Positions 14,034 through 27,513 of a stretch of 64,000 nucleotides of DNA are shown in pieces. This DNA is from a candidate division NPL-UPA2 bacterium Unc8. GTDB lineage: Bacteria; NPL-UPA2. A program made the translations under genes and the position numbers. Within the stretch, counting starts at the first letter, position 1, and the number at the start of each line of letters is the position of its first letter. The notes under the pieces were generated by a model. It had not been told where the DNA came from. It saw nothing but the letters and a program-made list of their open reading frames with translations, and made no database searches. Location: assembly GCA_003574845.1 (NCBI GenBank), contig NDHY01000002.1, positions 16,317 through 80,316 of the forward strand. The letters run 5' to 3'.

Positions 14034-14061
14034 AATTTTCCCTCTATTTATTTCTCTTGAT

Positions 14062-14411
14062 GGAGCTACTCATAAGCCGGGTTCTGTATAGTGGTGACTA
14101 TTTATCTGTTCATCAGATTGCTCTGATGAATCAAGCAGCCTACCCGGGGGTCAGACGGAACGGGCAATTCCTTCCCCCTTATTTGGCCTTGCTCCAGGTG
14201 GGGTTTACCATGCCCTGCCAGATCACTCCGGCAGGCGGTGAGCTCTTACCTCGCCTTTTCACCCTTACCCTTAACATCAGAGATGTCAAGTGCGGTATAT
14301 TTTCTGTGGCACTTTCCGTCAGGTCACCCTGCGTCGCCGTTAGCGACCACCTTGCCCTCTGGAGCCCGGACTTTCCTCCCGCCTAAGGCGAGCAGCCACC
14401 TGAGTAGCTCC
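14062..14411 (-). ncRNA. rnpB: RNase P RNA, bacterial type A
   Basis: Reverse complement contains near-verbatim conserved blocks of E. coli M1 RNA (GGAGGAAAGTCCGGGCTCC, GGTAAGAGCTCACC, GGTAAACCCCACCTGGAGCAAGGCCAAATAGG, CCCGGGTAGGCTGCTTG, ACAGAACCCGGCTTAT). The P1 helix is GGAGCTACTCA/TGAGTAGCTCC. The track's ORF 14057..14386 is spurious. Confidence 0.92.
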
Positions 14412-15533: not shown

Positions 15534-16409
15534 TCATAATCCAGCAACATCCAATACCCCCGGCACAATTTTCTCCCAGCCAATAGCCATAATATGCACC
15601 CCTTGACAGATGTCCCTCAGCTCCTTGATTAGGTTAGCAGCAATTTCTATCCCTGTCGCCGCTTTATCTTCAGCCTCAGCCATTTTGTTAATCAATTCTT
15701 CAGGGACGAAAACACCAGCCACATTTTTATTCATATATCGTGCCATACCAGCTGATTTCAAGGGTATTATTCCAACCAAGATAGGGATGCCAAATCCTTT
15801 CACCCTTTTCATAAATTTGGCGAAGGCTCCGGGCTCATAGACGGCCTGGGTTTGAAAGAACCTGGCCCCGGTTGCAATCTTTTTCTCCATCTTAATAAGC
15901 TGTAATTCAAAGGCAGCTTCACTACCCATCCCGGGATTTACTACTGCTCCAGGAAAGAAATTTGGCTTACCCTTGAGCTCATTATCAACCATATCGTAAC
16001 CTTCGTTTAACCTTTTTATGACCCACAAGAGCTGCACCGAGTCTAAGTCGAAAACTGGCTTGGCCTGGGGGTGGTCGCCGAGAGAGGGTAAATCGCCGGT
16101 GAGTGCCAGAACATTTTCAATCCCCAGGGCATAGGCACTCAACAGGTCTGATTGTAGCGCCAATCGGTTTCTATCGCGGCAGGTCATCTGTAATATCGGC
16201 TCGAGCCCGCTTTCTTTCAACAGGTGGCAGACAGCCAATGAGCCCATCCTCATCACCGAGCTTTGCTGGTCAGTAACATTGGCAGCATCCACCCTTCCCC
16301 GCAGAAGCTCAGCCACCTCCACAATCTCGGTGGTGTCGGTTCCCTTCAGCGGACCGACCTCAGCCGTCACCACAAACTTTCCTGCCTCAAGAAGTGATTG
16401 CAAACTCAT
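15534..16409 (-). CDS. metF: 5,10-methylenetetrahydrofolate reductase, short acetogen-type MetF
   Basis: 291 aa TIM-barrel MTHFR without a regulatory domain. Adjacent to metV. Confidence 0.85.
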   Translation of the reverse strand: MSLQSLLEAGKFVVTAEVGPLKGTDTTEIVEVAELLRGRVDAANVTDQQSSVMRMGSLAVCHLLKESGLEPILQMTCRDRNRLALQSDLLSAYALGIENVLALTGDLPSLGDHPQAKPVFDLDSVQLLWVIKRLNEGYDMVDNELKGKPNFFPGAVVNPGMGSEAAFELQLIKMEKKIATGARFFQTQAVYEPGAFAKFMKRVKGFGIPILVGIIPLKSAGMARYMNKNVAGVFVPEELINKMAEAEDKAATGIEIAANLIKELRDICQGVHIMAIGWEKIVPGVLDVAGL

Positions 16410-17062
16410 TTTAATCCTTCTCCTACCTTGAATGTGCGCGGTCTTTTCATCTTGGCATAATCCACCGACATAGCCATTTCTTTTAATTTATCCAACTCAC
16501 CCAGTTTCTTTAACCGATCATATATCAGTATCCAGGCACAGTCGTGCTCAGGCTCTTGCTCGCACTTATCTTCCTTAGTGCCTCCACACGGGCCATTTAA
16601 TAGTCCCTTGGAACACTGGGTCATAGGACATATGCCAGCTGTCTGCCCCAGGACACAATTTCCACATTGCATGCATATCTCAGTAAGACAGCCTGGGGTC
16701 TTTTCTTTGGCCATACATAAAGTATTTAATGCTGGATAAATACTCTTATCGGCATAGAGACTGACTGTTTGAACACCGAAGGCACAGGACATCACCAAGA
16801 TAGCGTTAGCTGCCTTGACCTTCCTGGCATTTATCTTCAGGGCATCCCCGGTAAGCTTGTCGCAAGCGGTAGGTATCATCATCCATCCGGTAACTTTTTT
16901 GCCGTCGGCTTCAAGCTTGTTTTTCATCTCCAGGACCTCGGATTTCCCGCCGGTGTGGAGCATGGTGGCACAGGTGCCACAGCCGATGATATACACTCTC
17001 TTACATTTCCCAAGACACTGCATAATTTCATCTAAAGGTTTTTGTTCTGTAATCGTTATCAT
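16406..17062 (-). CDS. metV: MTHFR small subunit MetV (MTHFR_C-type zinc-finger-like domain)
   Basis: 218 aa. Cys-rich C-terminus CTEICMQCGNCVLGQTAGICPMTQCSKGLLNGPCGG matches the MetV/MTHFR C-terminal domain. 4-nt overlap with metF. Confidence 0.8.
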   Translation of the reverse strand: MITITEQKPLDEIMQCLGKCKRVYIIGCGTCATMLHTGGKSEVLEMKNKLEADGKKVTGWMMIPTACDKLTGDALKINARKVKAANAILVMSCAFGVQTVSLYADKSIYPALNTLCMAKEKTPGCLTEICMQCGNCVLGQTAGICPMTQCSKGLLNGPCGGTKEDKCEQEPEHDCAWILIYDRLKKLGELDKLKEMAMSVDYAKMKRPRTFKVGEGLK

Positions 17063-17076
17063 ATCATTACACCACC

Positions 17077-18276
17077 TTAATTCTGTCGGATTCGGTTTTC
17101 ATAGACACTTCTAAAATACTGCAAACTATTTACTACCGGAATAGGAGCAGCTTGCCCCAGACCACATAGAGAAGAAAGCATCATGGCGCTGGCTACTTCC
17201 TCTAAAAGGCTAATGTCTGTCTCCAACCCCCCTCCCCGGGAAAACCTCTCCAGAATTTCAACCATTACTTCGGTCCCTTCTCGGCAGGGAGTGCATTTGC
17301 CGCAACATTCTTCAGCTAAAAACTCCATGACTCTATAGACGATATCTATTATGTCCCTGGTCTCATTAAATACAATGATGGCTCCCGCCCCAAGAATACT
17401 TTCAAAGGCAAGGGGCATATCTATCATCTCATAGGGTATAATTCTTCCCGTGGCACCACCCACCTGAACCATTTTAACCTTCTCGGCTAAGGCTAATCCT
17501 TCGACTAATTCCCTCAGCCGACTCCCCAGGACTAATTCATATACGCCAGGCTTTTTCACATCCCCACTCACCGAGAAAACTTTAGTGCCCTTGCTCTGCT
17601 CTGTTCCCAATTGACTAAACCAGTGACCTCCGTTAAAGATGATCTGAGGTATATTCATCAGGGTTTCTACATTATTGATAATAGTTGGTTTTCCCCACAA
17701 ACCTCTTGATGGCGGGAACGGAGGTCTATACCGAACCTCCCCCCGCTTACCTTCTATAGAATCCATTAGCGCTGACTCCTCACCACATATATAGGCGCCA
17801 GCACCTTCACGAATATCAATGTCAAATTGGTCTAAAAAACCCCCCTCTTTGGCTTGACCAATAGCATTTTTCAACAAATCAAGCAGACAATGATATTCGG
17901 CACGCAGATAGATGTAGCCCCTCTTTGCCCCAATGGCATAGCCAGCAATAGCCATAGCTTCAATCAGAGTGAACGGGTCCCTTTCCAGAATATATCTATC
18001 CTTAAATGTTCCTATCTCCCCTTCATCGGCATTGCAGATAACGTATTTCTCATCCACTTGAGCTTTTCCTGCCAACTCCCATTTCAATCCACAGGGGAAC
18101 CCAGCCCCTCCTCGACCCCGCAGCCCCGATAGCTTTATTTCGTCTATTATTTGTTCCTGAGTCACCCCAGCCAAAGCTTTTTTCAAAGCTTTAAAACCAT
18201 CCCTATCCAAATAAGTGGATATCTGCATCGGGTCGATAACCCCGCAATTTCTTAAGACAATCCGCTGCTGCGCCAT
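17077..18276 (-). CDS. NuoF-like NAD(H)-binding FMN/[4Fe-4S] subunit (51-kDa family), core form
   Basis: 399 aa. GRGGAGFPCGLKWE FMN-binding signature and a C-terminal Cys cluster (CGKCTPCREG). Confidence 0.85.
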   Translation of the reverse strand: MAQQRIVLRNCGVIDPMQISTYLDRDGFKALKKALAGVTQEQIIDEIKLSGLRGRGGAGFPCGLKWELAGKAQVDEKYVICNADEGEIGTFKDRYILERDPFTLIEAMAIAGYAIGAKRGYIYLRAEYHCLLDLLKNAIGQAKEGGFLDQFDIDIREGAGAYICGEESALMDSIEGKRGEVRYRPPFPPSRGLWGKPTIINNVETLMNIPQIIFNGGHWFSQLGTEQSKGTKVFSVSGDVKKPGVYELVLGSRLRELVEGLALAEKVKMVQVGGATGRIIPYEMIDMPLAFESILGAGAIIVFNETRDIIDIVYRVMEFLAEECCGKCTPCREGTEVMVEILERFSRGGGLETDISLLEEVASAMMLSSLCGLGQAAPIPVVNSLQYFRSVYENRIRQN

Positions 18277-18311
18277 CAGATAACCTCCTTGCCAGGGTTG
18301 TAATCAAGTTT

Positions 18312-18758
18312 TTATTTATGTGCCTTCAAAATCTGCGATATTTTGTTCGGGGTTAAATCAATATAAACTTCACTATTAATCATCATTGCCGGAGCTTTAT
18401 CGCAAACACCGATACAGTTAGTTAAATGAAAAGAGAATTTACCATTGGGAGTAGTTTCGCCGGGTTTAATCCCAATTTCTTTTTCAACGGTTTCAATTAT
18501 GACCTGCGAGTTTTTAAGAAAGCAGGGCACGCTTTTGCAAATCCTGATTATGTTCCTACCCTGTGGTCTGATTGAGAAAAAGGAGTAGAATGTGGCTACT
18601 CCATATACATCACTTATAGACATATCCAGGGATTCAGCTAGTTCAATCATAACTTTTTCAGACAGATAACCAAATTTGTTTTGTGCCTCTCCCAGCCGAA
18701 CTAATAGTTCTTTCTGTTCCTTGTTCTGCATATAAATTTCTCCATTGATTTTATTCAT
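18312..18758 (-). CDS. NuoE-like thioredoxin-fold [2Fe-2S] subunit (24-kDa family)
   Basis: 148 aa with conserved NuoE-type Cys spacing (ICKSVPCFL...NCIGVCDKAP). Confidence 0.85.
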   Translation of the reverse strand: MNKINGEIYMQNKEQKELLVRLGEAQNKFGYLSEKVMIELAESLDMSISDVYGVATFYSFFSIRPQGRNIIRICKSVPCFLKNSQVIIETVEKEIGIKPGETTPNGKFSFHLTNCIGVCDKAPAMMINSEVYIDLTPNKISQILKAHK

Positions 18759-18772
18759 TTTTCTTGTCCTGG

Positions 18773-19450
18773 TTAGCCGCTTATAATCAATGGCTCACCT
18801 TTCTTTTCTTCTCCTATTTCCCCGTGCTTGCTTAATGCACCGGTTGGGCAAAAGGAGATGCAGACATCGCAATCTCGGCAAACATCCTTATCTATTGGTT
18901 GGTCGAAATCAACCACAACCTTAGAATCAAAGCCTCGATAAGCTATGCCGAATACTTTCTCCTTTTTTATTTCATTACACGCACTTACGCATCTCCGACA
19001 TAAGATACACTTTGTTAAATCACGGACGATGAACGGACTTGCGTCTTCTACAGGATAATAACGTTTTTTCACCTGAAATCGGGGCAGCCCCACCTCTAAG
19101 TCAGTAGCAATACTGCGTAATTCACATATGTTAGCCTTATCGCACATAAAACAGTTCCCACAGTGACTGGCCAGTAAAAGCTCTACCATTGTCTTGCGGA
19201 CTTGCAAAACCTTCTTTGAATGGGTATGGATAACCATGCCCTGGGCGATTGGAGTATGGCAAGAGCCAACCAAAGTCTCGGACCTCTCTACTTCAACAAC
19301 GCAAATCCGACAAGCTCCAATAGGAGATAGTTCCTGTCTATAGCACAGAGCGGGAATATCTATACTATTTTCTTTGGCAACTTCGAGAATAGTCATCCCG
19401 GAGCTTGCGCTTAATTGACGGTCATTTATAGTTAAAGCTATCTGCTCCAT
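18773..19450 (-). CDS. NuoG N-terminal-like Fe-S protein: plant-type [2Fe-2S] + His-ligated [4Fe-4S] + two ferredoxin-type [4Fe-4S] clusters
   Basis: 225 aa. CYRQELSPIGACRIC, HCGNCFMCDKANIC, CILCRRCVSAC and CRDCDVCISFCP. Paralogous to the first ~220 aa of fdhA. Confidence 0.75.
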   Translation of the reverse strand: MEQIALTINDRQLSASSGMTILEVAKENSIDIPALCYRQELSPIGACRICVVEVERSETLVGSCHTPIAQGMVIHTHSKKVLQVRKTMVELLLASHCGNCFMCDKANICELRSIATDLEVGLPRFQVKKRYYPVEDASPFIVRDLTKCILCRRCVSACNEIKKEKVFGIAYRGFDSKVVVDFDQPIDKDVCRDCDVCISFCPTGALSKHGEIGEEKKGEPLIISG

Positions 19451-19475
19451 CTTTATATTGTACCACTTTCTGCAA

Positions 19476-20108
19476 TCACTCTGACATCTTCTCCTTCATC
19501 TTGTTAATAACATTAAGTAGCTTCCTGAGTTTATCCACCCCAGTATCTTGCAAGGTGATTACGGCATCTACATGGCCCGCGTGTCCGCATAGAGCAATTG
19601 TATAGCAAATAGTGCCATCTCTAACAATCTTCAACGCCACATCAGCATAGGGACAGTCTATTCCCACAAAGACAGAGACATCGTACTTATTGTGCCCGAT
19701 AACTAAATCGCCATGATAGGGATTAATTTCGGTGGCAGATCTCATCTTTGGATACTCGGGACGAATGTCGGTGATGGGAAGTATCTCCGCTCCTATTGCT
19801 TCTGCCAGTTCTCTTAACACCTCGGCTTTTTCTGGTGCTCCTTCTTTCCAGGGCCAGAGAATAATATACGCTGAGGTGAAAATAACGGGATTTTTAGCAT
19901 TTAGCACTTTTTCAGCAATTTTCTCTAAAGCCTCATCCTCAGAAACATCCTTTTCTTCCACCGTAGCTCTGCCTTTTCCGGGATGCGTCATCTTGGACAC
20001 CGCTTCTGGACCAAGAAGCCACCGATACCTGACCTTATCTATTTCTGCAATCACTCTGGCACCTCTTTTCCATTTACATAGGTTAAGCTTTCTCGATCCG
20101 AACGCCAC
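19476..20108 (-). CDS. Hypothetical protein in the FDH/Nuo-like cluster (start uncertain; overlaps fdhA 3' end)
   Basis: 210-aa ORF with no family recognised by eye. Sits between fdhA and the Fe-S subunit gene. Confidence 0.3.
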   Translation of the reverse strand: MAFGSRKLNLCKWKRGARVIAEIDKVRYRWLLGPEAVSKMTHPGKGRATVEEKDVSEDEALEKIAEKVLNAKNPVIFTSAYIILWPWKEGAPEKAEVLRELAEAIGAEILPITDIRPEYPKMRSATEINPYHGDLVIGHNKYDVSVFVGIDCPYADVALKIVRDGTICYTIALCGHAGHVDAVITLQDTGVDKLRKLLNVINKMKEKMSE

Positions 20109-22911
20109 AACTCTTAAGTCCGGAAGCCACCGACATGTTGCACACCGCCGGGTTCATCAGGACGTTAACCGGGGACTCGGCGAAATGGAAGCTCATACAG
20201 ACCAGACCCGGCGGAACGCGGTCGGTAAGATTTATCTTAGATTTAATTGAGCCGCGGCGGGAAGTCACTTTAACGGTATCCTCGGCATCTAACCCCAGTC
20301 CCTCTGCGTCCTGTGGATTTATTTCCATCCGCTCTTCTTTGATGAGGCTGTTCAAGCCATCGGATTTACCCGTCATGGTTCTGGTATGGTAATGGTAGAG
20401 CTTGCGTCCGGTTGTCAGGATGAAGGGATAGTCTTCATCGGTAGCATCAGCGGCCAGTGGTCGGTATTCTACAGTGGAGAACTGGCCTATGCCGCGGGCG
20501 AATTTGCTTTTGTGCAGTATGGGTGTGCCGGGATGGTCGATGGCGGTGCAGGGCCATTGGAGTCCGCCGGCATCAAGTCGCTCATAGCTCATGCCGCCAA
20601 AGTAGTGTGGTGTCAGCTCTCTTACCTCATCCCATATTTCTTCAGCAGAACTATAGTTCCAGTTAAGGCCGAACCTGTTGGCCAGTTCCTGGATGATTTC
20701 CCAGTCAGCTTTGCTGTCGCCGCGCGGTTTGATGGCACGGCGGATGAGCTGTACCCGTCTTTCTGTATTGATGAAGGTACCGTCTTTCTCGGCAAAGGAG
20801 GCTGCCGGCAAGACAACATCGGCGTATTGAGCGGTTTCGTTCAGGAAGATGTCTTGGACTACCACGAAGTCCATATCTTCTAAGGCTTCACGAACAAGTT
20901 CAGCCTGTGGGCTGGTAAGAACAGGGTTTTCTCCCATGATATACATGATGCGACTGCGCCTGTGAGGGAAATAGTGGAACATCTCAGCTATGGTGCGGCC
21001 GGGCACATCGGAGAGCTCCACTCCCCACGCCCTGGAGAACTTGGCGCGTATCGTATCGCTGACACTCATATTGAGTGATATAGGCTCATCAAACTCTATA
21101 CTTTCAATAACCGAGCTATCAGCCCCCGCCTCCTCCCGGCTGACGGCTGACGGCTGACGGCTGACGGCTCCCTTGAGCCGTTGCCAGTAGGTACCCGTGT
21201 CTCTGTCGCTGTGTACTGGCTGGTAACCGGTCAGGACGTTGGGCAGGCAACCCATATCGCAGGCGCCCTGCACGTTGTTTTGGCCGCGCAGCGGGTACAT
21301 GCCGGCATGTGGTTTACCCAGGTTGCCGGTGAGCAGGGAGAGGTTGGTTAGGGCGACGACATTTTCGGTACCGCAGGTATGCTGTGTTACGCCCATGGCG
21401 TAGAAGATGGAGCCGCTGTCAGCTTGAGCAAAGAGCCGGGCGGCGGTGATAATTTTTTCTGCCGCTACTCCGGTTATTTTGGCGACGTAGTCCGGTGTGT
21501 ATTTTTCAACCATTTTTTTTAGGTGTTGGAAATCCTGAGTGCGGGTCTCAATGTATTCCTGGTCTTGAAGCCCTTCTTTTATGATTACGTGCGCCAGAGC
21601 ATTGAAGAGGGCTATGTCTGTCCCGGGCTTGAATTGCAGGTGTACGTCGGCTATTTCTGCCAGCTGTATACGGCGCGGGTCGGCAACGATCAACTTAGCG
21701 CCATTCCTGACAGCCTGGCGTATTCTGTAACCAATAACAGGTTGACTTTCGGTGGGGTTAATGCCGGTTACTAAAATGGCCCCGGCGCCTGCTATCTCGT
21801 CAACAGTATTTGTCATTGCTCCGCTGCCTAATACGGTGGCCAGACCGACCACGGTGGGGGCATGTCAGAGGCGTGCGCAGCAATCAATACTGTTGGTGCC
21901 CAGAGAGCGCAATAACTTCTGGAAGAGGTAGTTTTCCTCGTTGGTTACCCTGGCTGAACTTAACCCGGCCAGGGCTTCGGGACCGTACTTCTCCTGCGCT
22001 TCCTTAAATTTGGCTGTCACCAGGTCGAGGGCTTCATCCCAGGTGGCTTCCACAAAGACACCGTTGCGCTTAATCAGAGGGGTGGTTAAGCGATCAGGAT
22101 GATTGACAAAGTCATAGCTAAAGCGCCCTTTCACGCAGAGCTGCCCTTTATTGACGACACTATCACGGTCGCCGCGGGCAGAGACTATTTTGTCTCCGCG
22201 TATGCCTAGATAAATCCCGCAACCGGTACCGCAGTAGGGACAGATACTCTTCACTTCACGCTCTGGCTTCCGCATATTTTGGGGGACTAAGGCGCCCACC
22301 GGACATCTCACAACACACTCTCCACAGGACTCACATCTGGATTCTACAATGGGTTTGTCCTTGAGGGTGCTGATTCTGGTATCAAGTCCCCGAAAGGCAA
22401 AGTCGATCGCACCGACTCCGTTAATCTCTTCACAGGTCCGCACGCAGATGCCACACAGAACACACTTATTGGGATCACGGATGAAGAAGGGATTTGAGTC
22501 ATCAAGGGGAAGGTCTCGGGCAGTTCGCTTCAAGCGCTGAAGACGTCCTTCCTCGATGCCGATATAGGCGGCGATATCCTGAAGCTTGCAATCCGTGTTC
22601 CGGGCACACTGGAGACACTCGGAGTAATGGTTTACGATGAGCAGTTCAGCGGCGACTCGACGCATCTTATCTATCTCCGGACCTTCCGTCCGCACCGCTA
22701 TCCCCTCCTCAACCGGCGCCTTACAGGAAATGGTGAGACCCCTTCCCTCGATCTCAACGACGCACAGACGGCACCCTCCGAAGGGCTTTAAGTCGGGGTG
22801 ATAGCAGAGATGCGGGATATAGATGCCATGATCGAGTGCCGCTTGAAGTATGGTATCCTCTTTGTTCGCCATAACCTCTAAGTCATCCAGCTTAAGAACA
22901 ACCTTATCCAT
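20083..22911 (-). CDS. fdhA: Formate dehydrogenase catalytic subunit (molybdo/tungstopterin, NuoG-like N-terminus), selenocysteine-containing; TGA at 21865-21867 is read through
   Basis: Track ORFs 21865..22950 and 20083..21852 are in the same frame, separated only by TGA. The junction reads [33 protein letters not shown], the canonical Sec active-site motif of FdhF/FdhA. An fdhF-like SECIS hairpin sits 12 nt downstream. The likely start is the ATG at 22911, overlapping the upstream NuoF-like stop as ATGGATAA. Confidence 0.85.
21138..21165. repeat. (GGCTGAC)x4 heptanucleotide tandem repeat inside the fdhA coding sequence
   Basis: Direct reading. Encodes the low-complexity segment GAVSRQPSAVSREE. 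The unit length is not a multiple of 3. Confidence 0.9.
21836..21852 (-). promoter_or_regulatory. Candidate SECIS element: hairpin GUGGUC-GGUCU-GGCCAC starting 12 nt 3' of the UGA
   Basis: 6-bp stem (one G-U pair) with the apical loop GGUCU, the same loop sequence and spacing as the E. coli fdhF SECIS. Confidence 0.55.
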
Positions 22912-24754
22912 GAATCTTAACCTCCCTTCCTGGAATAATTTCCACCGCACCGAAGCGCTCCGGGCATACGCTCAGACATACCCCGCACCTGGTGCACTTG
23001 TCCTGGTCAATTACATGAACCTCCTTCTTGCCGCCTTTGATTGCTTCGACGGGGCACTTGCGGAGGCAGATCATACAAGCCTTACATTTATCCGACACGA
23101 TAATATAGGAAATAAGCCCCTTGCACACCCTCGCTGGACACTTCTTTTCGAGGATATGGGACTCATATTCCTCGCGAAAATAACGAATGGTACTGAGGAC
23201 CGGGTTCGGTGCGCTCTGTCCCAGACCACAGATCGAGCCTATTTTAACGCTCTCACCCAGTTCAATGAGCAGGTCGATGTCCTCGATCCTGCCGTTCCCT
23301 TCCGTTATAGCGTTAAGGATCTCCAGCATTTGCACGCTTCCCAAGCGGCACAAAGAGCACTGTCCGCATGATTCCTTCTGGGTAAAGTCCAGGAAATAGC
23401 GGGCGAGATCAACCATGCAGGTATCCTCATCCACCACCACCATACCCCCGGAGCCCATCATCGAGCCAGCGGCGGTAAGCGAATCGAAATCAATGGGGGT
23501 ACCGAGCAGGCCTTCAGGCAGAACGCCCCCCGAAGGCCCCCCGGTCTGCACCGCCTTAAAAGTCCTGCCGCCGGGGACCCCTCCCCCGATGTCAAAGATA
23601 ATCTCACGAAGGGTGATTCCCATAGGCACCTCTATAAGCCCGCAGTTTGTTATCTTACCAGTCAGTGAAAAGATGGCCGTTCCTTTGCTCTTCTCAGTGC
23701 CCTGGCTGGCAAACCACTCCGCCCCTTTATTGATAATCCAGCGAATGTTGGCGAAGGTCTTAACGTTATTAAGAAGCGTAGGCCTACCCCACAATCCCAC
23801 CTCGGTGGTGCGGGGACGAGGGAGGGGCTTGGGCATTCCCCTCGCCCCCTCAAGGGAGAGAGTCAAAGCAGTGGACTCACCACAAACAAAAGCCCCTGCA
23901 CCCTGGAAAATCTCAATATCAAAACCGAATCCATTGCCTAAAACATTTTCCCCCAGAAAACCCCGCTCCCGAGCCTCGGCGATGGCAATCCCGAGACGTT
24001 TTACCGCCAGGGGATATTCCGCCCGGACGTAGACATAGCCTTTTGTCGCTCCCACGGCGTAGCCGGCAATGATCATCCCCTCTACGACTGAGTGAGGGTC
24101 GCCTTCCAGGACCGATCGGTCCTGGAAGGCCCCGGGGTCGCCTTCATCGGCATTGCAGACTACATACTTCTCGTCCCCCGGCACGCGGCGACAGGCCTCC
24201 CACTTCCGCCCGGCAGGAAAGCCGCCTCCTCCGAGTCCACGCAGCCCCGAGCGTTTTACCGCCTCGATAACCTGCTCCGGGGTCATCTCAGATAGAACCT
24301 TGCGTAGTGCTTGATAACCGCCGACGGCAAGATAGTCATCAATCTCCTCAGGGTCAATATAGCCGCAATTCTTGAGCACGGTGCGCTGCTGCTTGTTATA
24401 GAAGGTAATGTCGCGGTGATGAGGTATTGCTCTGTCAGTAACCGGATCGCGGTAGAACAGTCGCTCGATCGGCTGTCCCTGCGGCAGAAGCGACCGAGCA
24501 ATCTCCGGTGCATCGTCCACCTTGACCTCTGAGTAGAGAAGGCCCTCGGGCTCGATAATGACAACAGGATCTATTTGGCTGAAGCCACGGCAGCCGGTGT
24601 GCTTCACTTGAACGGTACCTGCCAAATCTAACCGTGCTATCTCCTCCCTCAGCGCGGCTGAAATTTGTTTGGCTCCTGCTGATATGCAGCATGTCCCCTG
24701 ACCGAGCAGGACAGTCCTAACCGGCATCTTGTCCCTCCTTTTTGGTGGAAGCAA
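22904..24754 (-). CDS. HydB/HndC/HylB-type NuoF-like subunit: N-terminal thioredoxin-like [2Fe-2S], FMN/NAD(P)H core, C-terminal 2x[4Fe-4S] ferredoxin
   Basis: 616 aa. N-terminal CxxC pair, GLGGGGFPAGRKWE, CGQCSLCRLG, then CKACMICLRKCP and CTRCGVCLSVCP. Confidence 0.85.
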   Translation of the reverse strand: MLPPKRRDKMPVRTVLLGQGTCCISAGAKQISAALREEIARLDLAGTVQVKHTGCRGFSQIDPVVIIEPEGLLYSEVKVDDAPEIARSLLPQGQPIERLFYRDPVTDRAIPHHRDITFYNKQQRTVLKNCGYIDPEEIDDYLAVGGYQALRKVLSEMTPEQVIEAVKRSGLRGLGGGGFPAGRKWEACRRVPGDEKYVVCNADEGDPGAFQDRSVLEGDPHSVVEGMIIAGYAVGATKGYVYVRAEYPLAVKRLGIAIAEARERGFLGENVLGNGFGFDIEIFQGAGAFVCGESTALTLSLEGARGMPKPLPRPRTTEVGLWGRPTLLNNVKTFANIRWIINKGAEWFASQGTEKSKGTAIFSLTGKITNCGLIEVPMGITLREIIFDIGGGVPGGRTFKAVQTGGPSGGVLPEGLLGTPIDFDSLTAAGSMMGSGGMVVVDEDTCMVDLARYFLDFTQKESCGQCSLCRLGSVQMLEILNAITEGNGRIEDIDLLIELGESVKIGSICGLGQSAPNPVLSTIRYFREEYESHILEKKCPARVCKGLISYIIVSDKCKACMICLRKCPVEAIKGGKKEVHVIDQDKCTRCGVCLSVCPERFGAVEIIPGREVKIHG

Positions 24755-25190
24755 AGATATCCGTCACCTTCTTAGGAGTCAATCGACCATGAACATCCTT
24801 GTTATTAATTATTATACAGGGCGCCAGCGCGCAACAACCAATACAGGCGACGGTTTCCAGGGTGTATTCCAGGTCGGATGTTGTCTCTCCCTCCTCCACA
24901 GCCAGTTGCCTCTTTACCTCATTGAGAATCTGTGGGGCACCTCGAACATGGCAAGCCGTTCCGCGGCAGACCATGACCCGGTTTCTGCCTATGGGGGTGA
25001 AACGAAATTGGGCATAGAAGGATGCTGCACCGAAGACTTTGCTTTCGGTTACTCCGCAAAGCTGGGCGACCTTGACCATCTCCTCTTCGGGAAGATAGCC
25101 GAATCTTTCCTGAATTTGCTGCAGAATCGGTATCAGCTTGCCTCTCCCTCTCTTATAGGATGATAAAATCTCTTTTAGACGGTCTTTCAT
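24717..25190 (-). CDS. NuoE-like [2Fe-2S] subunit (HydC/HylA-type), second copy
   Basis: 157 aa. VCRGTACHVRGA and ACIGCCALAPC are NuoE-family cysteine motifs. Confidence 0.8.
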   Translation of the reverse strand: MKDRLKEILSSYKRGRGKLIPILQQIQERFGYLPEEEMVKVAQLCGVTESKVFGAASFYAQFRFTPIGRNRVMVCRGTACHVRGAPQILNEVKRQLAVEEGETTSDLEYTLETVACIGCCALAPCIIINNKDVHGRLTPKKVTDIFASTKKEGQDAG

Positions 25191-25249
25191 AATCTTACTC
25201 CAGTTTTACCCATTACCTCTTCCTTCCCTCAGCCCGTCTTTTTCTCTTC

Positions 25250-26137
25250 CTAAGCCAGTCCAGCGGACAGCTTAGCGGCTCTTACTGTGTTTAGCATAAG
25301 CATGGTTATGGTCATCGGTCCCACCCCACCAGGTACCGGGCTAATAGCTTTAGCCTTCTCCTTAACCGCATCAAAGTCAACATCCCCAGCCAAAATAGCT
25401 TTGCCTTCCGCTGTTTTTCCAATTCGGTTAACGCCGACATCAATCACCACCACTCCTTCCTTAACCATATCAGCAGTTATCGCTTTAGCTCTACCAGCGG
25501 CTACAATCAGTATATCGGCTCGCCTGGTATGAAAAGCCATGTCCTTGGTTCGGGTGTGGCATATAGTCACCGTAGCATTAGCCCCCTCTTTCTTCTGGAG
25601 AAGGATATTGGCTATAGGTTTGCCCACGATGTTGCTTCTACCCACCACCACTACTTCCGCCCCTTCAATCTTAACCCCGGACCTGATTAGAAGCTCCTGA
25701 ATTCCGTGTGGGGTGCAGGGCAGGTAATCTGGCTCCCCTATCATTAATTTGCCCACATTCACCGGATGAAAGCCATCAACATCCTTTTTAGGGTCAATAG
25801 CGTAAAGAACCCTGTTCTCATTGATATGCTCGGGCAAAGGTAACTGAACCAGAATCCCGTGAATCCTGGGGGCTTTATTTAACTTATTAATTAGAGCCAG
25901 CAATTCTTCTTCACAGGTGTCGACCGAAAGGTCGTGTCTTTCCGAATAAACACCCAGGGCGTCACATGTCTTTCCTTTCGCTCCAACATAAACCTGGGAT
26001 GCCGGGTCTTCACCCACCAGAACGGTAGTTAGTCCTGGTATGAGATTATGCTTTTCCTTGAGTTCAGCGATTTCTTGCTTTAGCTCCTGGCGAATCTTCT
26101 TTGCAATCTCAGTGCCACTAATAATCTGTGCTGACAT
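25250..26137 (-). CDS. folD: Bifunctional methylene-THF dehydrogenase / methenyl-THF cyclohydrolase
   Basis: 295 aa with an FolD-typical N-terminus and NADP-binding region (VVVVGRSNIVGKP). Confidence 0.9.
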   Translation of the reverse strand: MSAQIISGTEIAKKIRQELKQEIAELKEKHNLIPGLTTVLVGEDPASQVYVGAKGKTCDALGVYSERHDLSVDTCEEELLALINKLNKAPRIHGILVQLPLPEHINENRVLYAIDPKKDVDGFHPVNVGKLMIGEPDYLPCTPHGIQELLIRSGVKIEGAEVVVVGRSNIVGKPIANILLQKKEGANATVTICHTRTKDMAFHTRRADILIVAAGRAKAITADMVKEGVVVIDVGVNRIGKTAEGKAILAGDVDFDAVKEKAKAISPVPGGVGPMTITMLMLNTVRAAKLSAGLA

Positions 26138-26170: not shown

Positions 26171-26749
26171 TTATTTTGACCCGCTTCTTATGAGAGCAAT
26201 GGCTTCTGCTCTTGTTTTCTCATTCTTCTTAAATATTCCCCTCACAGCCGAAGTTGTAGTGAAAGTGCCTGGTTTTTGGATGCCGCGCATACTCATGCAA
26301 AGGTGCTCAGCTTCAATAATAACTATTACCCCGCGCGGTTTGAGTTTTTCCATAATTACATCAGCAATCTCAGAGGTAAGCCGCTCCTGAACCTGAAGTC
26401 GCCTGGAGAGAATCTCTACCACACGAGCCAATTTACTCAATCCTGTAACTCTTTTGCCTTGTGAAATATAGCCAACGTGTGCTTTTCCATAGAAAGGAAG
26501 AAGGTGATGTTCACAGATAGAATAGAGAGGAATGTCTTTTATTAGGATGATTTCATCATATTCTATTCCTGTGGTAATCTTTATCTCCTTGCCTGCGTCT
26601 CTACCTATGCCCGAGAAAATCTCTTCATACGTTCTGGCAACCCGCGCCGGCGTTTCAGCGAGTGCCAGACTTTTTGGGTCCTCTCCAATTGCCTTGAGGA
26701 TCATCTCAACTGCCTGTTCTATTTTATCTTTATCCATTTTTGCTACCAT
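26171..26749 (-). CDS. folE: GTP cyclohydrolase I
   Basis: 192 aa with the [16 protein letters not shown] active-site signature. Confidence 0.9.
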
Positions 26750-26941: not shown

Positions 26942-27148
26942 TTAAGCTTCTAAAACAAAGATAACCTCTATCCTGACCCTGTATTCCTCTATCTTATTTT
27001 CTTTAACATGAATTCTGGACTCAATAATCCGCAATCCAGTGATTCCTCTAAGGGTCTTAGTAGCTCTTTTAAATCCCGTTTTGATTGCATCATCAAAACT
27101 TACCGGTGACCCCGCGACAATTTCCGTAACCCTTGCTACTCTTCCCAT
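26942..27148 (-). CDS. Dodecin (small flavin-binding protein)
   Basis: 68 aa from the internal Met. RVTEIVAGSPVSFDDAIKTGFKRA...IEEYRVRIEVIFVLE matches the dodecin fold consensus (V.EIVG.S...DAI...R...L...V...V.F.LE). Confidence 0.7.
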   Translation of the reverse strand: MGRVARVTEIVAGSPVSFDDAIKTGFKRATKTLRGITGLRIIESRIHVKENKIEEYRVRIEVIFVLEA

Positions 27149-27219: not shown

Positions 27220-27513
27220 TTACTCCAGACTTGCCTCAATATAAGCTATTAATTGCCCGATCTCAATTATTACTTTCTGGATTACTTTCATCTTGTCAGA
27301 TGGGTCAACTGAGGATGTATCCTCAAGCTCGGAGAAGGTAGCAATAAGGACATCATCTTCCTTCTTAAAGATTGTTTTTGCTTTTTCTAATAACCGATTA
27401 TACCTGTTCACGAATGGAGCGGCGCTATAGTATCCCGCTCCACGTTGCTGAATATTTTGCAAATCAGTAGCTAATGCTTTGACCATTCTTAAGAGCACTT
27501 TCTTCTCGTCCAT
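27220..27513 (-). CDS. Hypothetical protein (~97 aa from MDEKK...)
   Basis: ORF only, with a codon-usage-consistent frame. No family recognised. Confidence 0.35.
   Translation of the reverse strand: MDEKKVLLRMVKALATDLQNIQQRGAGYYSAAPFVNRYNRLLEKAKTIFKKEDDVLIATFSELEDTSSVDPSDKMKVIQKVIIEIGQLIAYIEASLE

What the first reader, a model, noticed from the sequence alone, without database searches (positions are those of the whole stretch)
15534..26137. Single minus-strand cluster joining a HylABC-like Sec-FDH, a second NuoEF(G-N) module, MetFV and FolD: candidate formate-to-methyl-branch redox supercomplex
The gene order is folD, then NuoE-like(2), then the HydB/HylB-type NuoF with extra 2Fe-2S and 2x4Fe-4S domains, then fdhA(Sec), a 210-aa unknown, a NuoG-N-like Fe-S protein, NuoE-like(1), core NuoF-like(1), metV and metF. 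The first trio (NuoE2, NuoF2, FdhA) resembles flavin-based electron-bifurcating Hyl-Fdh-type formate dehydrogenases. The second NADH-dehydrogenase-like module sits directly against MetV-MetF, where known acetogen MTHFRs instead use RnfC2 or HdrABC-MvhD. Two distinct NuoEF modules in one apparent operon, bracketed by Wood-Ljungdahl methyl-branch enzymes, is unusual. It suggests either an NADH-dependent MetFV-NuoEF MTHFR variant or one larger complex. No hydrogenase or CODH/ACS genes lie in the window.
Basis: inference. Interest (0 to 1): 0.65.

Follow-up and report, generated by a model that had tools for sequence, protein, structure and literature searches.

The report
Formate dehydrogenase and methylene-folate reductase operon
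One operon of an uncultured spring bacterium encodes two separate NADH-linked enzymes of the carbon-fixing Wood-Ljungdahl pathway, both of kinds already predicted, but the formate dehydrogenase carries an extra small subunit not described before for this enzyme.

Summary
The gene order is real. The window is Contig_2 of candidate division NPL-UPA2 bacterium Unc8, whose authors had already noted nuoEF and nuoEGF beside fdh and folD.

I read the cluster as two separable enzymes in one apparent operon.

**Module A, formate dehydrogenase.** It comprises NuoE2, NuoF2, selenocysteine FdhA and the "210-aa unknown".
- NuoF2 is a full-length bifurcating-type (Bfu/HydB) flavoprotein.
- FdhA has an in-frame UGA and a conserved SECIS hairpin.
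- The "unknown" is a CdhB-like (PF02552) protein. Its close homologs sit beside FdhA in 28 genome loci from many phyla.
- FdhAs that have this partner carry an insertion (53 aa in the window) that partner-less FdhAs lack.

**Module B, methylene-THF reductase.** It comprises NuoG-N, NuoE1, NuoF1, MetV and MetF.
- MetV directly follows NuoF1-like genes in 53 of 55 testable contigs.
- This is the uncharacterised "X-type" MTHFR named by Yi et al. in 2021.
- NuoF1 lacks every bifurcation-specific ligand, so a plain NADH-dependent enzyme is most likely.

**One supercomplex is not favoured.** The modules usually occur apart, each has its own NAD(H) flavoprotein, and the FDH trio is a GC3 outlier. They are, however, repeatedly juxtaposed elsewhere. 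The new element is the CdhB-like FDH partner.

The parts
25250..26137 (-). folD, methylene-THF dehydrogenase / methenyl-THF cyclohydrolase; first Wood-Ljungdahl gene of the apparent operon
   Evidence: PF00763 and PF02882, E 1.6e-42 and 3.3e-66. It lies 33 nt downstream of folE (26171-26749) and 59 nt upstream of nuoE2.
24717..25190 (-). NuoE2, a HydC/BfuC-type thioredoxin-like [2Fe-2S] subunit of the FDH module
   Evidence: PF01257, E 2.7e-48. Overlaps nuoF2. Co-occurs with HydB-type NuoF and FdhA in 20 genome loci.
22904..24727 (-). NuoF2, a HydB/BfuB-type NAD(P)H/FMN subunit with a C-terminal 2x[4Fe-4S] domain and an atypical N-terminal 2Fe-2S site
   Evidence: Full-length match to bifurcating HydB/NfnB/Stn chains 7t2r_B, 7q4v_B, 9n5u_B and 8oh5_B. 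Ligands of clusters B1, B2 (C446, T484, H533, C539, C544), B3 and B4 are present. The B5 site is G18/C22-C23/C55/S59. GC3 is 0.62.
20083..22911 (-). fdhA, a selenocysteine formate dehydrogenase catalytic subunit with a NuoG-like N-terminal Fe-S domain (942 aa including Sec)
   Evidence: Pfam Fer2_4, NADH-G_4Fe-4S_3, Fer4, Molybdop_Fe4S4, Molybdopterin and Molydop_binding. Best solved relatives are FdsA 9wxb_B/6tg9_A and the HDCR FdhF 7qv7_S. GC3 is 0.60.
21865..21867 (-). In-frame TGA read as selenocysteine (CCARL-U-HAPTV)
   Evidence: The homologous codon is TGA in 27 unique relatives and TGT/TGC in 11.
21836..21852 (-). SECIS hairpin core GUGGUC-GGUCU-GGCCAC, starting 15 nt after the first base of the UGA codon (12-nt spacer)
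   Evidence: Exact in 24 of 27 unique Sec homologs. The three variants keep the pairing, one through compensatory changes. It is absent in 0 of 11 Cys homologs, three of which encode the same VVGLAT peptide with other codons. The hairpin is part of the minimum-free-energy fold.
21055..21213 (-). 53-aa insertion in FdhA (residues 567-619, HSDRDTGTYWQRL...SIEFD...SVSD); proposed docking site for the CdhB-like protein
   Evidence: Present in all 14 CdhB-linked FdhAs aligned, shorter in two of them. Absent in 6 FdhAs without a CdhB-like neighbour. Solved FDHs align in two stretches that break at about residue 569.
19476..20054 (-).
   Evidence: Pfam E 2.6e-26. The AlphaFold2 model (pLDDT 82) best matches CODH epsilon subunits 3cf4_G and 9c0s_C, TM about 0.56. 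Homologs sit beside FdhA in 28 genome loci. The conserved N-terminus lies upstream of the start annotated by NCBI.
18773..19450 (-). NuoG-N-like / HoxU-like Fe-S protein (one 2Fe-2S, one His-ligated 4Fe-4S, two further 4Fe-4S) of the MTHFR module
   Evidence: Pfam Fer2_4, NADH-G_4Fe-4S_3 and Fer4_Nqo3. Best solved matches are the N-termini of HydA1 8a6t_A and 7q4v_A. Found upstream of NuoE-NuoF1-like genes in 45 of 46 testable loci.
18312..18758 (-). NuoE1, the [2Fe-2S] subunit of the MTHFR module
   Evidence: PF01257, E 1.2e-47. Upstream of NuoF1-like genes in 64 of 64 testable loci.
17077..18276 (-). NuoF1, a core-only NADH/FMN/[4Fe-4S] flavoprotein of the non-bifurcating type
   Evidence: Pfam Complex1_51K, SLBB and NADH_4Fe-4S only. 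The B2 ligands are replaced (D308, S346, R395) and the chain ends before C531/C536. There are no B3-B5 clusters. A202 is T and M204 is K. More than 120 protein clusters are 79-100% identical.
16406..17062 (-). metV, the Fe-S subunit of MetVF-type methylene-THF reductase
   Evidence: PF12225, E 1.2e-31. Lies 14 nt after nuoF1 and overlaps metF by 4 nt. Directly follows NuoF1-like genes in 53 of 55 testable loci.
15534..16409 (-). metF, the catalytic flavoprotein of methylene-THF reductase
   Evidence: PF02219, E 2.6e-42. Found downstream of NuoF1-MetV in 27 of 27 testable loci.

Best explanation
The stretch is one co-transcribed Wood-Ljungdahl methyl-branch operon (folE?-folD...metF). It encodes two separate soluble redox enzymes that communicate through the NAD(H) and ferredoxin pools, not through a shared iron-sulfur wire.

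**Enzyme A, a four-subunit formate dehydrogenase.**
- Subunits (shown): selenocysteine FdhA with a tungsten or molybdenum pterin and a NuoG-like Fe-S N-terminus; NuoF2, a BfuB/HydB-type subunit carrying FMN and an NAD(P)H site; NuoE2, a BfuC/HydC-type subunit; and a CdhB-like protein.
- Reaction (inferred): by homology with Bfu enzymes, it oxidises formate and splits the electrons between NAD(P)+ and ferredoxin, reversibly.
- CdhB-like role (inferred): it docks on a 53-aa FdhA insertion found only in FdhAs that have this partner. By analogy with the archaeal CODH epsilon subunit, which buries an exposed cluster, it caps or insulates part of FdhA.

**Enzyme B, a five-subunit methylene-THF reductase.**
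- Subunits (shown): NuoF1, NuoE1, NuoG-N, MetV and MetF.
- Electron path (inferred): NADH reduces the FMN of NuoF1. Electrons then pass through the Fe-S clusters of NuoE1 and NuoG-N to MetV, and on to the flavin of MetF. MetF reduces methylene-THF.
- It works on the same principle as the A. woodii MetVF-RnfC2 enzyme.
- NuoF1 lacks all Bfu-specific clusters, so this step is most likely not bifurcating (inferred).

**Physiology (inferred).** In Unc8, which is reported to have no hydrogenase, formate oxidised by A supplies the NADH used by B and FolD, and the reduced ferredoxin used by CODH/ACS and Rnf.

**Basis of each step.**
- Shown: gene content, residue patterns, synteny and sequence composition.
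- Inferred: subunit contacts, cofactor specificity and reaction directions.
For: **Operon**
- Gene gaps run from -47 to +59 nt. No intergenic terminator or promoter signal rises above shuffled controls.
- All genes are expressed in situ within about 2.6-fold of one another (supplement of PMC6305446).

**Module A**
- NuoF2 aligns over its full length with bifurcating HydB/NfnB/Stn chains.
- It keeps the ligands of clusters B1, B2 (including the Bfu-specific His533), B3 and B4, as defined by Schut et al. 2022.
- UGA plus a SECIS hairpin is conserved at synonymous sites in 24 of 27 Sec homologs and in 0 of 11 Cys homologs.
- CdhB-like homologs of 55% identity or more are adjacent to FdhA in 28 of 29 testable genome loci, and the 29th has FdhA about 1 kb away. 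The loci span Acetothermia, Dehalococcoidia, Bacillota and Desulfobacterota, in five gene orders.
- The FdhA insertion co-varies with the presence of a CdhB-like gene.
- The fold of the CdhB-like model matches the CODH epsilon subunit.

**Module B**
- Synteny counts are 64/64, 45/46, 53/55 and 27/27. Three further neighbourhoods agree.
- The arrangement was already proposed as the X-type MTHFR.
- NuoF1 has only cluster B1 and complex-I-like residues at positions 202 and 204.

**Separateness**
- The modules occur independently.
- The FDH trio has GC3 of 0.53-0.62 against a background of 0.34-0.48 for most other long ORFs. It matches the 53-55% GC of its nearest relatives, two Dehalococcoidia single-cell genomes.

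**Physiology**
- Unc8 is reported to lack hydrogenases and was proposed to live on formate (PMC9751293).
Against: - No protein-level data exist for any subunit contact.
- FDH and the NuoG-N/E/F-MetV module are juxtaposed again in independent lineages, with 0-25 nt between fdhA and nuoG-N (L116, L125, L139, L150, L151, L167). MetVF abuts CdhB-FdhA in two Dehalococcoidia single-cell genomes (L015, L017). This would also fit a physical super-assembly.
- The N-terminal B5 site of NuoF2 has three Cys plus a Ser, and M204 is replaced by Gln, whereas Schut et al. describe all five BfuB clusters as conserved. Bifurcation by module A is therefore not assured.
- Organisms that run the pathway oxidatively also carry NuoEFG-MetFV. 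That is easier to explain if module B couples to ferredoxin.
- No FdhA::CdhB fusion protein was found.
- In L015 and L017 the cdhB-like gene is also lower in GC than its neighbours, so the edge of the transferred block is uncertain.
Confidence: 0.6

Rival explanations
1. One supercomplex. FDH (A) and NuoG-N/E/F-MetVF (B) assemble into a single formate:methylene-THF oxidoreductase. It would pass electrons internally and perhaps bifurcate to ferredoxin.
For: - The two modules are adjacent here, with overlaps or short gaps.
- They are adjacent again in at least 8 of about 25 metagenome loci that have enough upstream sequence, sometimes with fdhA abutting nuoG-N.
- MetVF-CdhB-FdhA-NuoEF adjacency occurs in L015 and L017.
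Against: - About two thirds of NuoG-N/E/F-MetV loci lack an upstream FDH, and most CdhB-FdhA loci lack MetVF.
- Two complete NAD(H)/FMN subunits would be redundant in a single wired complex (inference).
- The FDH trio is a compositional outlier, so the pairing here is evolutionarily recent.
- The stnABC genes next to metVF in Sporomusa ovata show that adjacency of NuoEF-like genes to metVF need not mean one complex (PMC7483475).
Confidence: 0.1
2. Module B is electron-bifurcating. NuoG-N/E/F-MetVF would couple NADH oxidation to methylene-THF reduction and ferredoxin reduction together, as Yi et al. speculated for the X-type enzyme.
For: - Yi et al. 2021 proposed it.
- The core of NuoF1 is closer to bifurcating HydBs (439 bits) than to Nqo1 (360 bits), and NuoG-N is closest to the N-termini of bifurcating HydA.
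- The module occurs in sulfate reducers, which need to oxidise methyl-THF against NAD+ (plus thermodynamic reasoning).
Against: - NuoF1 lacks clusters B2-B5, the Bfu-specific His and the A202/M204 signature. Schut et al. find all of these in true bifurcating BfuB and not in non-bifurcating homologs.
- No second flavoprotein is encoded apart from MetF.
Confidence: 0.2
3. The CdhB-like protein is not a structural FDH subunit. It would instead be a maturation or cofactor-insertion factor, or a regulator, that merely travels with fdhA.
For: - Its position relative to fdhA varies (upstream, downstream, or separated by nuoEF).
- FdhD and MobA-like genes precede it in L007.
- Family members are also fused to a periplasmic-binding-protein-like domain or to lipoate-ligase domains.
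- No FdhA::CdhB fusion was found.
Against: - In the two systems where the family has been studied at protein level, it is a stoichiometric subunit: archaeal CODH alpha2-epsilon2 (PMC11474084) and the five-subunit PFOR/OGOR of Aquifex (PMC10052474).
- A POR-gamma::CdhB-like fusion exists (P0233).
- The FdhA insertion co-varies with its presence.
Confidence: 0.25
4. NuoG-N/E1/F1 is a free-standing diaphorase or transhydrogenase-like enzyme that is only co-transcribed with metVF. MetVF itself would be ferredoxin-dependent, as in Clostridium ljungdahlii.
For: - The S. ovata precedent of stnABC next to metVF.
- The heterodimeric MetFV of C. ljungdahlii works with reduced ferredoxin (PMC8515935).
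Against: - The order NuoG-N, NuoE, NuoF, MetV is fixed, with 12-30 nt gaps, across NuoF1 relatives of 63-93% identity (53 of 55 loci).
- The trimer has no catalytic domain or second substrate site of its own.
Confidence: 0.1

Closest known systems
Bfu family of electron-bifurcating enzymes, Type 1 Fdh-Bfu (Schut et al. 2022); solved members include HydABC (7q4v, 8a6t, 7p5h), NiFe-HydABCSL (7t2r), NfnABC (9n5u) and Stn (8oh5)
   Same: - NuoF2 aligns end to end with BfuB chains and keeps the ligands of B1, B2 (with the signature His), B3 and B4.
- NuoE2 corresponds to BfuC.
- FdhA carries the BfuA-like Fe-S N-terminus fused to the pterin domain, as in the predicted Carboxydothermus-type Fdh-Bfu.
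   Different: - The B5 site has three Cys plus a Ser instead of four Cys, and M204 is Gln.
- There is a fourth, CdhB-like protein and a 53-aa FdhA insertion, neither described for Bfu enzymes.
- No Type 1 Fdh-Bfu has been characterised biochemically.
Hyl-Fdh of Gottschalkia (Clostridium) acidurici and Hyt-Fdh of C. autoethanogenum (bifurcating FDH complexes)
   Same: Selenium-containing, tungsten- or molybdenum-dependent FDH working with HydB/HydC-type NuoF/NuoE subunits, with NAD(P)+ and ferredoxin as acceptors.
   Different: - There the pterin subunit (FdhF2) is separate from a HydA-like HylA/HytA. Here the NuoG-like domain is fused to FdhA, as in FdsA.
- Neither complex has a CdhB-like partner.
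FdsABG(D) NAD+-dependent formate dehydrogenase (Rhodobacter capsulatus 6tg9; Cupriavidus necator 6vw7)
   Same: The best solved match for FdhA (about 720 bits, same domain order), and the same alpha/NuoF/NuoE subunit logic.
   Different: - FdsB lacks clusters B2-B5 and is non-bifurcating; NuoF2 has B2-B4.
- FdsA uses Cys and molybdenum and lacks the insertion.
- There is no FdsD here.
'X-type' NuoEFG-MetFV methylene-THF reductase predicted by Yi et al. 2021 (Dethiosulfatarculus sandiegensis, Desulfobacterales, Chloroflexi)
   Same: NuoE/F/G-homolog genes directly upstream of metV-metF. The window's module B is a member by gene content and synteny.
   Different: - Nothing of substance differs. 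The class itself is uncharacterised.
- Residue analysis here argues against the bifurcation that Yi et al. speculated.
MetVF-RnfC2 NADH-dependent MTHFR of Acetobacterium woodii (type III)
   Same: MetF and MetV plus a subunit with a PF01512-type NADH/FMN domain that feeds electrons through Fe-S clusters. This is the likely functional equivalent.
   Different: The NADH entry module is a NuoF/NuoE/NuoG-N trimer instead of a single RnfC-like protein.
CdhB, the epsilon subunit of archaeal CODH/ACS, and the CdhB-like delta subunit of five-subunit PFOR/OGOR in Aquificaceae
   Same: PF02552 membership and the same single-Rossmann fold. A small accessory subunit of a low-potential, CO2-converting Fe-S enzyme, with its function unresolved in all cases.
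   Different: - Here the partner is a formate dehydrogenase.
- Sequence identity to CdhB is only about 14% in structural alignment.
- Unc8 has a separate genuine cdhABC cluster elsewhere.

Membership tests
Bfu (BfuABC) electron-bifurcating family: NuoF2/NuoE2/FdhA | BfuB has the NuoF-type [4Fe-4S] cluster B1 and an FMN/NAD(H) domain | tested here: met
   C463, C466, C469 and C509 align to C455, C458, C461 and C501 of 7t2r_B. PF01512 and PF10589 are present.
Bfu (BfuABC) electron-bifurcating family: NuoF2/NuoE2/FdhA | The B2 [2Fe-2S] ligands, including the His present in virtually all BfuB and absent in non-bifurcating homologs (C438, C476 or T, H525, C531, C536) | tested here: met
   The aligned residues are C446, T484, H533, C539 and C544. 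Thr at the second position is the common variant.
Bfu (BfuABC) electron-bifurcating family: NuoF2/NuoE2/FdhA | C-terminal clusters B3 and B4 (2x[4Fe-4S]) leading to ferredoxin | tested here: met
   All eight Cys are aligned (C557...C597). Pfam Fer4 hits cover residues 551-600.
Bfu (BfuABC) electron-bifurcating family: NuoF2/NuoE2/FdhA | N-terminal B5 [2Fe-2S] with four Cys, stated to be conserved in all Bfu enzymes | tested here: inconclusive
   The site reads G18 / C22-C23 / C55 / S59, that is three Cys plus a Ser. The same variant occurs in L033 and L052. The closest relative, L014, has four Cys.
Bfu (BfuABC) electron-bifurcating family: NuoF2/NuoE2/FdhA | Bfu-specific residues in the FMN/NADH domain (A202 and M204 of the A. 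mobile enzyme) | tested here: inconclusive
   A209 is conserved, but M204 is replaced by Q211. F182 could not be located in my numbering.
Bfu (BfuABC) electron-bifurcating family: NuoF2/NuoE2/FdhA | Formate-dependent simultaneous reduction of NAD(P)+ and ferredoxin | not testable with these tools
   Requires an enzyme assay.
Bfu family: NuoF1 (module B) | Clusters B2-B5 and the Bfu-specific His and A202/M204 residues | tested here: not met
   The aligned residues are D308, S346 and R395. The chain ends before C531/C536. There are no N- or C-terminal extension domains. A202 is T90 and M204 is K92.
X-type NuoEFG-MetFV MTHFR (Yi et al. 2021) | NuoE, NuoF and NuoG-homolog genes immediately upstream of metV-metF, conserved across genomes | tested here: met
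   Window order and gaps. Synteny counts are 64/64, 45/46, 53/55 and 27/27. Three further neighbourhoods agree.
X-type NuoEFG-MetFV MTHFR (Yi et al. 2021) | The five proteins form one enzyme with NADH:methylene-THF activity | not testable with these tools
   No member has been purified.
MetVF-HdrABC-MvhD MTHFR (Moorella type) | hdrA/B/C and mvhD genes next to metVF | tested here: not met
   No PF02662 or CCG-domain gene lies in 14.4-27.7 kb of the window. Compare L019, where HdrA and MvhD do precede MetV.
MetVF-RnfC2 MTHFR (Acetobacterium woodii type) | An RnfC-like subunit encoded with metVF | tested here: not met
   The adjacent flavoprotein is a NuoF with the PF10589 domain and NuoE/NuoG-N partners. 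It has no RnfC-type Fer4 architecture.
Selenocysteine formate dehydrogenase (FdhA/FdhF) | In-frame UGA at the active-site position followed by His, a downstream SECIS hairpin with a GGUC-type loop, and the Mo/W-bisPGD domains | tested here: met
   The SECIS core is conserved in 24 of 27 Sec homologs and 0 of 11 Cys homologs.
CdhB / PF02552 (CO_dh) | Sequence above Pfam's gathering score, and the epsilon-subunit fold | tested here: met
   92.8 bits against a cutoff of 21. The top Foldseek hits are 3cf4_G, 9c0s_C and 9c0r_C.
CdhB / PF02552 (CO_dh) | Encoded with, and bound to, CODH alpha (CdhA) | tested here: not met
   The neighbours are fdhA and nuoG-N. The genuine cdhABC cluster of Unc8 lies elsewhere. 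Close homologs pair with FdhA; more distant ones pair with 2-oxoacid:ferredoxin oxidoreductase genes.
FdsABG-type non-bifurcating NAD+-FDH | A NuoF-like beta subunit with only the B1-type cluster set, and an FdsD chaperone-like subunit | tested here: not met
   NuoF2 carries B2-B4. No FdsD-like ORF lies in the cluster.

The most novel reading that the evidence does not exclude
The FDH module and the NuoG-N/E/F-MetVF module dock into one formate:methylene-THF oxidoreductase. The CdhB-like protein would act as the adaptor or insulating cap. Such a complex would use the large potential gap between formate and methylene-THF to drive ferredoxin reduction. That would be a new energy-coupling site in the Wood-Ljungdahl pathway, suited to life on formate at pH 11 or above.

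A weaker version is much more likely, about 0.4: CdhB-like proteins are a shared accessory subunit of three CO2-converting Fe-S enzymes (archaeal CODH, five-subunit OFOR and this FDH clade).
Probability: 0.1. Interest if true: 0.8.

Novelty: new variant of a known kind. Interest (0 to 1): 0.45.

Why it matters
**The open question about MTHFR.** The electron donor, and any energy coupling, of methylene-THF reductase is a long-standing gap in acetogen bioenergetics.
- This window belongs to the large, uncharacterised NuoEFG-MetFV class.
- Its NuoF is more than 75% identical across many metagenome contigs and Chloroflexota/Dehalococcoidia genomes.
- The residue-level result gives a clear, testable prediction: the class should be a plain NADH-dependent enzyme, because its NuoF is of the non-bifurcating type.

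**The CdhB-like partner of FDH.**
- A CdhB-like protein consistently accompanies a selenocysteine FDH clade that has a matching insertion in FdhA.
- The loci come from genomes of Acetothermia, Dehalococcoidia, Bacillota (including Dethiobacter and Desulforudis) and Desulfobacterota, several from serpentinizing springs (CROMO, Hakuba, Samail).
- This ties together three CO2-converting enzymes (archaeal CODH, five-subunit PFOR/OGOR and FDH) through one accessory fold whose role is unknown in every case.
- It also corrects annotations that call the gene 'carbon monoxide dehydrogenase'.

**Limits.** None of this changes the pathway map, and both enzyme kinds were already predicted, so the advance is incremental.

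Tried and rejected
- **Solved-structure searches with no result.** phmmer of the CdhB-like protein and of MetV against solved structures found nothing usable. A profile of the CdhB-like family gave only weak hints, to the EtfA C-terminal domain and to ThDP-enzyme middle domains.
- **Promoter and terminator scan.** Counts equalled those in shuffled sequence, so the scan cannot prove or disprove internal transcription starts.
- **In-situ expression table of the Unc8 paper.** All cluster genes and their unrelated neighbours lie within the same roughly 2.6-fold range, so it does not discriminate operon structure.
- **Thermodynamic test of the SECIS hairpin.** The z-score was only -0.58. The support comes from conservation at synonymous sites instead.
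- **Search for an FdhA::CdhB fusion ('Rosetta stone').** None was found. Only POR-gamma, periplasmic-binding-protein-like and lipoate-ligase fusions appeared, and one 139-aa Molybdopterin+CO_dh fragment that looks like a gene-call artefact.
- **Literature searches.** Searches for CdhB together with FDH, for PF02552 and for 'CdhB-like' found no description of an FDH-associated CdhB-like subunit. The library is open-access only, so absence is not proof.
- **A retracted early note.** I first wrote that the FdhAs upstream of NuoG-N in metagenome loci were Sec enzymes. That was an artefact of splitting the query at the Sec codon; they are Cys enzymes.
- **A softened claim.** I first took cdhB-like to be 'native' and only the trio to be transferred. 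In L015 and L017 the cdhB-like gene is also lower in GC than its neighbours, so the claim is weakened.
- **Plus-strand ORFs inside 19.7-25.2 kb.** These are antisense shadows of the GC-rich genes and were not pursued.

Full report
**1. Source and observation**

The 210-aa ORF is 100% identical to a protein of candidate division NPL-UPA2 bacterium Unc8. The supplementary gene table of Suzuki et al. 2018 (PMC6305446) places the window on Unc8 Contig_2 at an offset of +16316. The locus tags run from B9J77_01205 (metF) to B9J77_01255 (folD).

- folD
- NuoE2
- NuoF2, which has the Complex1_51K, SLBB, NADH_4Fe-4S and C-terminal 2x[4Fe-4S] domains and a weak N-terminal thioredoxin-like hit
- FdhA
- the 210-aa ORF
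- a 225-aa NuoG-N-like Fe-S protein
- NuoE1
- a core-only NuoF1
- MetV
- MetF

FdhA is one reading frame interrupted by a single TGA, in the motif CCARL-U-HAPTV. Gaps between neighbouring genes run from -47 to +59 nt. The promoter and terminator scan finds nothing above shuffled expectation, and nothing in an intergenic gap.

**2. The '210-aa unknown'**

It is a PF02552 (CO_dh; CdhB / ACS-epsilon) protein, with 92.8 bits against a cutoff of 21.
- An alignment of 30 homologs shows a conserved N-terminal segment (YRWLxGPE...HPEK) upstream of the Met that NCBI uses as the start.
- The likely start is the GTG at 20054, behind an AGAGGTG ribosome-binding site.
- An AlphaFold2 model (pLDDT 82) matches the epsilon subunits of archaeal CODH best (3cf4_G, 9c0s_C, 9c0r_C, 8riu_C; TM about 0.56). 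The next matches are the middle domains of ThDP enzymes.

I then scanned one genome per species, which returned 80 loci, and ran tblastn with the window's proteins.
- Homologs of about 55-71% identity lie next to an FdhA in 28 loci.
- They occur in five gene orders: CdhB-FdhA; FdhA-CdhB; CdhB-NuoE-NuoF-FdhA; NuoE-NuoF-FdhA-CdhB, as in the window; and FdhA-CdhB-NuoE-NuoF.
- The genomes are labelled Acetothermia, Dehalococcoidia, Dethiobacter and other Bacillota, Desulfocapsaceae, Limnocylindrales and others. Several come from serpentinizing sites.
- Three independent neighbourhood look-ups agree.
- Homologs below about 55% identity instead precede the alpha, beta and gamma genes of 2-oxoacid:ferredoxin oxidoreductase. 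This is the five-subunit type, whose CdhB-like subunit is of unknown function in Aquifex (PMC10052474).

CdhB-linked FdhAs carry an insertion after GYQPV, 53 aa in the window (residues 567-619). It is shorter in two Cys-type members. It is absent from six FdhAs that have no CdhB-like neighbour. Solved FDHs also lack it, since their alignments break at about residue 569.

From this I infer that the CdhB-like protein is an FDH partner that docks on the insertion. [quoted passage not shown] That role is not shown.

My literature searches found no description of such an FDH subunit. The Unc8 authors labelled the gene 'nuo/cdhB' without comment.

**3. Selenocysteine**

Fifteen nucleotides after the first base of the UGA codon lies GUGGUC-GGUCU-GGCCAC. 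This is a 6-bp hairpin with a GGUC-type loop like that of E. coli fdhF (the comparison is from my own knowledge). It is part of the minimum-free-energy fold.

The 17-nt core is identical in 24 of 27 unique Sec-type homologs. The other three keep the pairing, one through compensatory changes. It appears in none of 11 Cys-type homologs; three of these encode the same VVGLAT peptide with different codons. That is good evidence for a functional SECIS.

**4. NuoF2 against the Bfu definition**

NuoF2 aligns end to end with BfuB subunits of structurally characterised bifurcating enzymes. It scores 793 bits against 7t2r_B and 762 bits against 7q4v_B, and also matches 9n5u NfnB, 8oh5 Stn, 8a6t and 7p5h. 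Non-bifurcating FdsB and Nqo1 score about 380 bits.

Schut et al. 2022 (PMC9304861) define the family by a BfuBC core with five BfuB clusters (B1-B5) and one BfuC cluster. The B2 ligands are C438, C476 (or T), H525, C531 and C536. The His is near-universal in BfuB and absent from non-bifurcating homologs.

Mapping those positions onto NuoF2 gives:
- B1: conserved.
- B2: conserved (C446, T484, H533, C539, C544).
- B3 and B4: all eight Cys conserved.
- A202: conserved. M204: replaced by Gln.
- B5 (the N-terminal site): reads G/CC/C/S, that is three Cys plus a Ser. Two relatives share this variant, while the closest relative (L014) keeps four Cys.

NuoF2 is therefore a Bfu-type subunit with one atypical site. 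Bifurcation is likely but not assured.

**5. Module B**

NuoF1 has more than 120 protein clusters at 79-100% identity. Three sampled neighbourhoods all show the same order, NuoG-N, NuoE, NuoF, MetV, then MetF, often with a sensor kinase between MetV and MetF. One of them is labelled Dehalococcoidia; the other two are unlabelled.

A metagenome scan gave 77 loci carrying NuoF1 relatives of 63-93% identity. Among loci with enough flanking sequence to test:
- NuoE lies upstream in 64 of 64.
- NuoG-N lies upstream in 45 of 46.
- MetV lies directly downstream in 53 of 55.
- MetF lies downstream in 27 of 27.

This linkage is far beyond chance. It matches the 'X-type' NuoEFG-MetFV MTHFR that Yi et al. 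2021 noted in Dethiosulfatarculus, Desulfobacterales and Chloroflexi, and speculated to be bifurcating (PMC8515935).

Measured against the same Bfu criteria, NuoF1 fails on every point:
- D308, S346 and R395 replace the B2 ligands.
- The protein ends before C531/C536.
- There are no terminal extension domains.
- Positions 202 and 204 are T and K, as in complex I.

NuoG-N resembles the Fe-S N-terminus of HydA. The simplest mechanism is NADH to FMN, then through the Fe-S chain to MetV, and on to MetF. That is the same logic as MetVF-RnfC2 in A. woodii (from my own knowledge).

**6. One complex or two?**

*Evidence for separateness:*
- About two thirds of module-B loci with upstream sequence have no FDH.
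- Most CdhB-FdhA loci have no MetVF.
- Each module has its own NAD(H) flavoprotein.
- GC3 is 0.60-0.62 for fdhA and nuoF2 and 0.53 for nuoE2. Most other long ORFs in the window lie at 0.34-0.48, and nuoG-N, nuoE1 and nuoF1 at 0.37-0.44.
- The trio's GC matches that of its closest relatives, which are 74-80% identical and come from Dehalococcoidia and Acetothermia genomes of 50-55% GC. This points to a recent horizontal insertion or replacement.

*Evidence for a closer link:*
- A Cys-type FdhA, with NuoE plus NuoF (HydB-type or a NuoF::GltD fusion), sits directly upstream of NuoG-N/E/F-MetV in L116, L118, L125, L137, L139, L150, L151 and L167.
- In the Dehalococcoidia single-cell genomes L015 and L017 the order is NuoE-NuoF::GltD-MetV-MetF-CdhB-FdhA-NuoE-NuoF.

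*Caution.* In S. ovata the stnABC genes lie next to metVF yet encode a separate transhydrogenase (PMC7483475), so adjacency alone does not show one complex.

*Conclusion.* I take the two to be co-regulated but separate enzymes, with a residual 10% for a physical super-assembly.

**7. Physiology**

Unc8 is reported to lack hydrogenases and was proposed to disproportionate formate to acetate (PMC9751293). Under that reading, the operon holds the three redox enzymes of the methyl branch:
- FDH, which supplies NADH and reduced ferredoxin;
- FolD;
- an NADH-dependent MTHFR.

All are expressed in situ.

**8. Verdict**

Both enzyme kinds were already predicted in the literature. The element I could not find described is the CdhB-like partner of a selenocysteine FDH clade, together with the matching FdhA insertion. 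I rate this a new variant of a known kind, of moderate interest.

Noticed in passing
window 14058-14411 (-): Bacterial RNase P RNA (class A, 302 bits). It lies directly downstream of the RNase HI and Zn-ribbon (COG1579) genes that follow metF, all on the same strand.
   Followed up: no
window 46399-46523 (-) and 43464-46279 (-): A Moco/Wco riboswitch (72 bits) sits upstream of three ABC-transporter genes. Their best NCBIfam matches, all below the curated cutoffs, are TupA, TupB and WtpC (tungstate type). This suggests the selenocysteine FDH is a tungsten enzyme with cofactor-sensed metal uptake.
   Followed up: partly
window 20083-25190 (-): The nuoE2-nuoF2-fdhA block has 50-56% GC and GC3 of 0.53-0.62, against GC3 of 0.34-0.48 for most other long ORFs in the window. 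It is probably a recent horizontal acquisition from a Dehalococcoidia- or Acetothermia-like donor. The edge on the cdhB side is uncertain. metV and metF are mildly elevated too (GC3 0.50 and 0.53).
   Followed up: partly
window 19476-20108 and 20083-22911 (-): The public annotation of Unc8 starts the CdhB-like protein at an internal Met (171 aa), which cuts off a conserved N-terminal segment. It also splits FdhA into two CDS (348 and 577 aa) at the Sec codon.
   Followed up: yes
P0103: A protein 100% identical to NuoF1 is deposited under a 'Syntrophomonadaceae bacterium' MAG. Either the same population was binned under another name or there has been a very recent transfer.
   Followed up: no
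L009, L011, L013, L116 and many loci in L094-L159: In Chloroflexota-type loci a sensor histidine kinase lies between metV and a 305-aa MetF that is only about 46% identical to the window's. Two response-regulator genes follow. The window-type loci (L094, L098, L111, L123, L134) have metV directly followed by a 291-aa MetF that is 75-89% identical.
   Followed up: partly
L044-L093; P0233, P0225, P0243, P0277: A sister group of CdhB-like proteins (45-55% identity) precedes 2-oxoacid:ferredoxin oxidoreductase genes in many Bacillota and other genomes. Fusions exist with POR gamma, with a periplasmic-binding-protein-like domain and with lipoate-protein-ligase domains. At 50% clustering the whole family collapses to only 87 representatives.
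   Followed up: partly
L015:884-3943, L116:1015-4074: NuoF fused to a GltD/NfnB-like FAD-NADPH domain (1019 aa), encoded with NuoE next to MetVF or FdhA. It is reminiscent of Stn/NfnABC and suggests NADPH-linked variants of the same superclusters.
   Followed up: partly
L116:133-576, L167:862-1641: A DUF3786 gene precedes the NuoE-NuoF-FdhA(Cys)-NuoG-N-NuoE-NuoF-MetV clusters.
   Followed up: no
window 26942-27148 (-) and 27220-27513 (-): According to the Unc8 supplementary table, a dodecin (flavin-storage) gene lies just upstream of folE. So does a 97-aa hypothetical gene ranked 18th in in-situ expression. The strongest promoter-like hexamers in the scanned region (27567-27538 and 27266-27238) also lie here.
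   Followed up: no
window 1939-5375 (+), 26171-26749 (-), 36187-37476 (-): Riboflavin (ribD, ribE, ribBA, ribH) and folate (folE, folC) cofactor genes lie in the same 64-kb window as the flavin- and folate-dependent operon.
   Followed up: no
L009:285-6690: In a Dehalococcoidia contig, the NuoG-N/E/F-MetV module is directly preceded by HdrC/B/A-like genes, NuoE, a 640-aa HydB-type NuoF, and a 592-aa NuoG-N/polyferredoxin protein with no catalytic domain. This is another 'donor module plus MTHFR module' pairing.
   Followed up: partly
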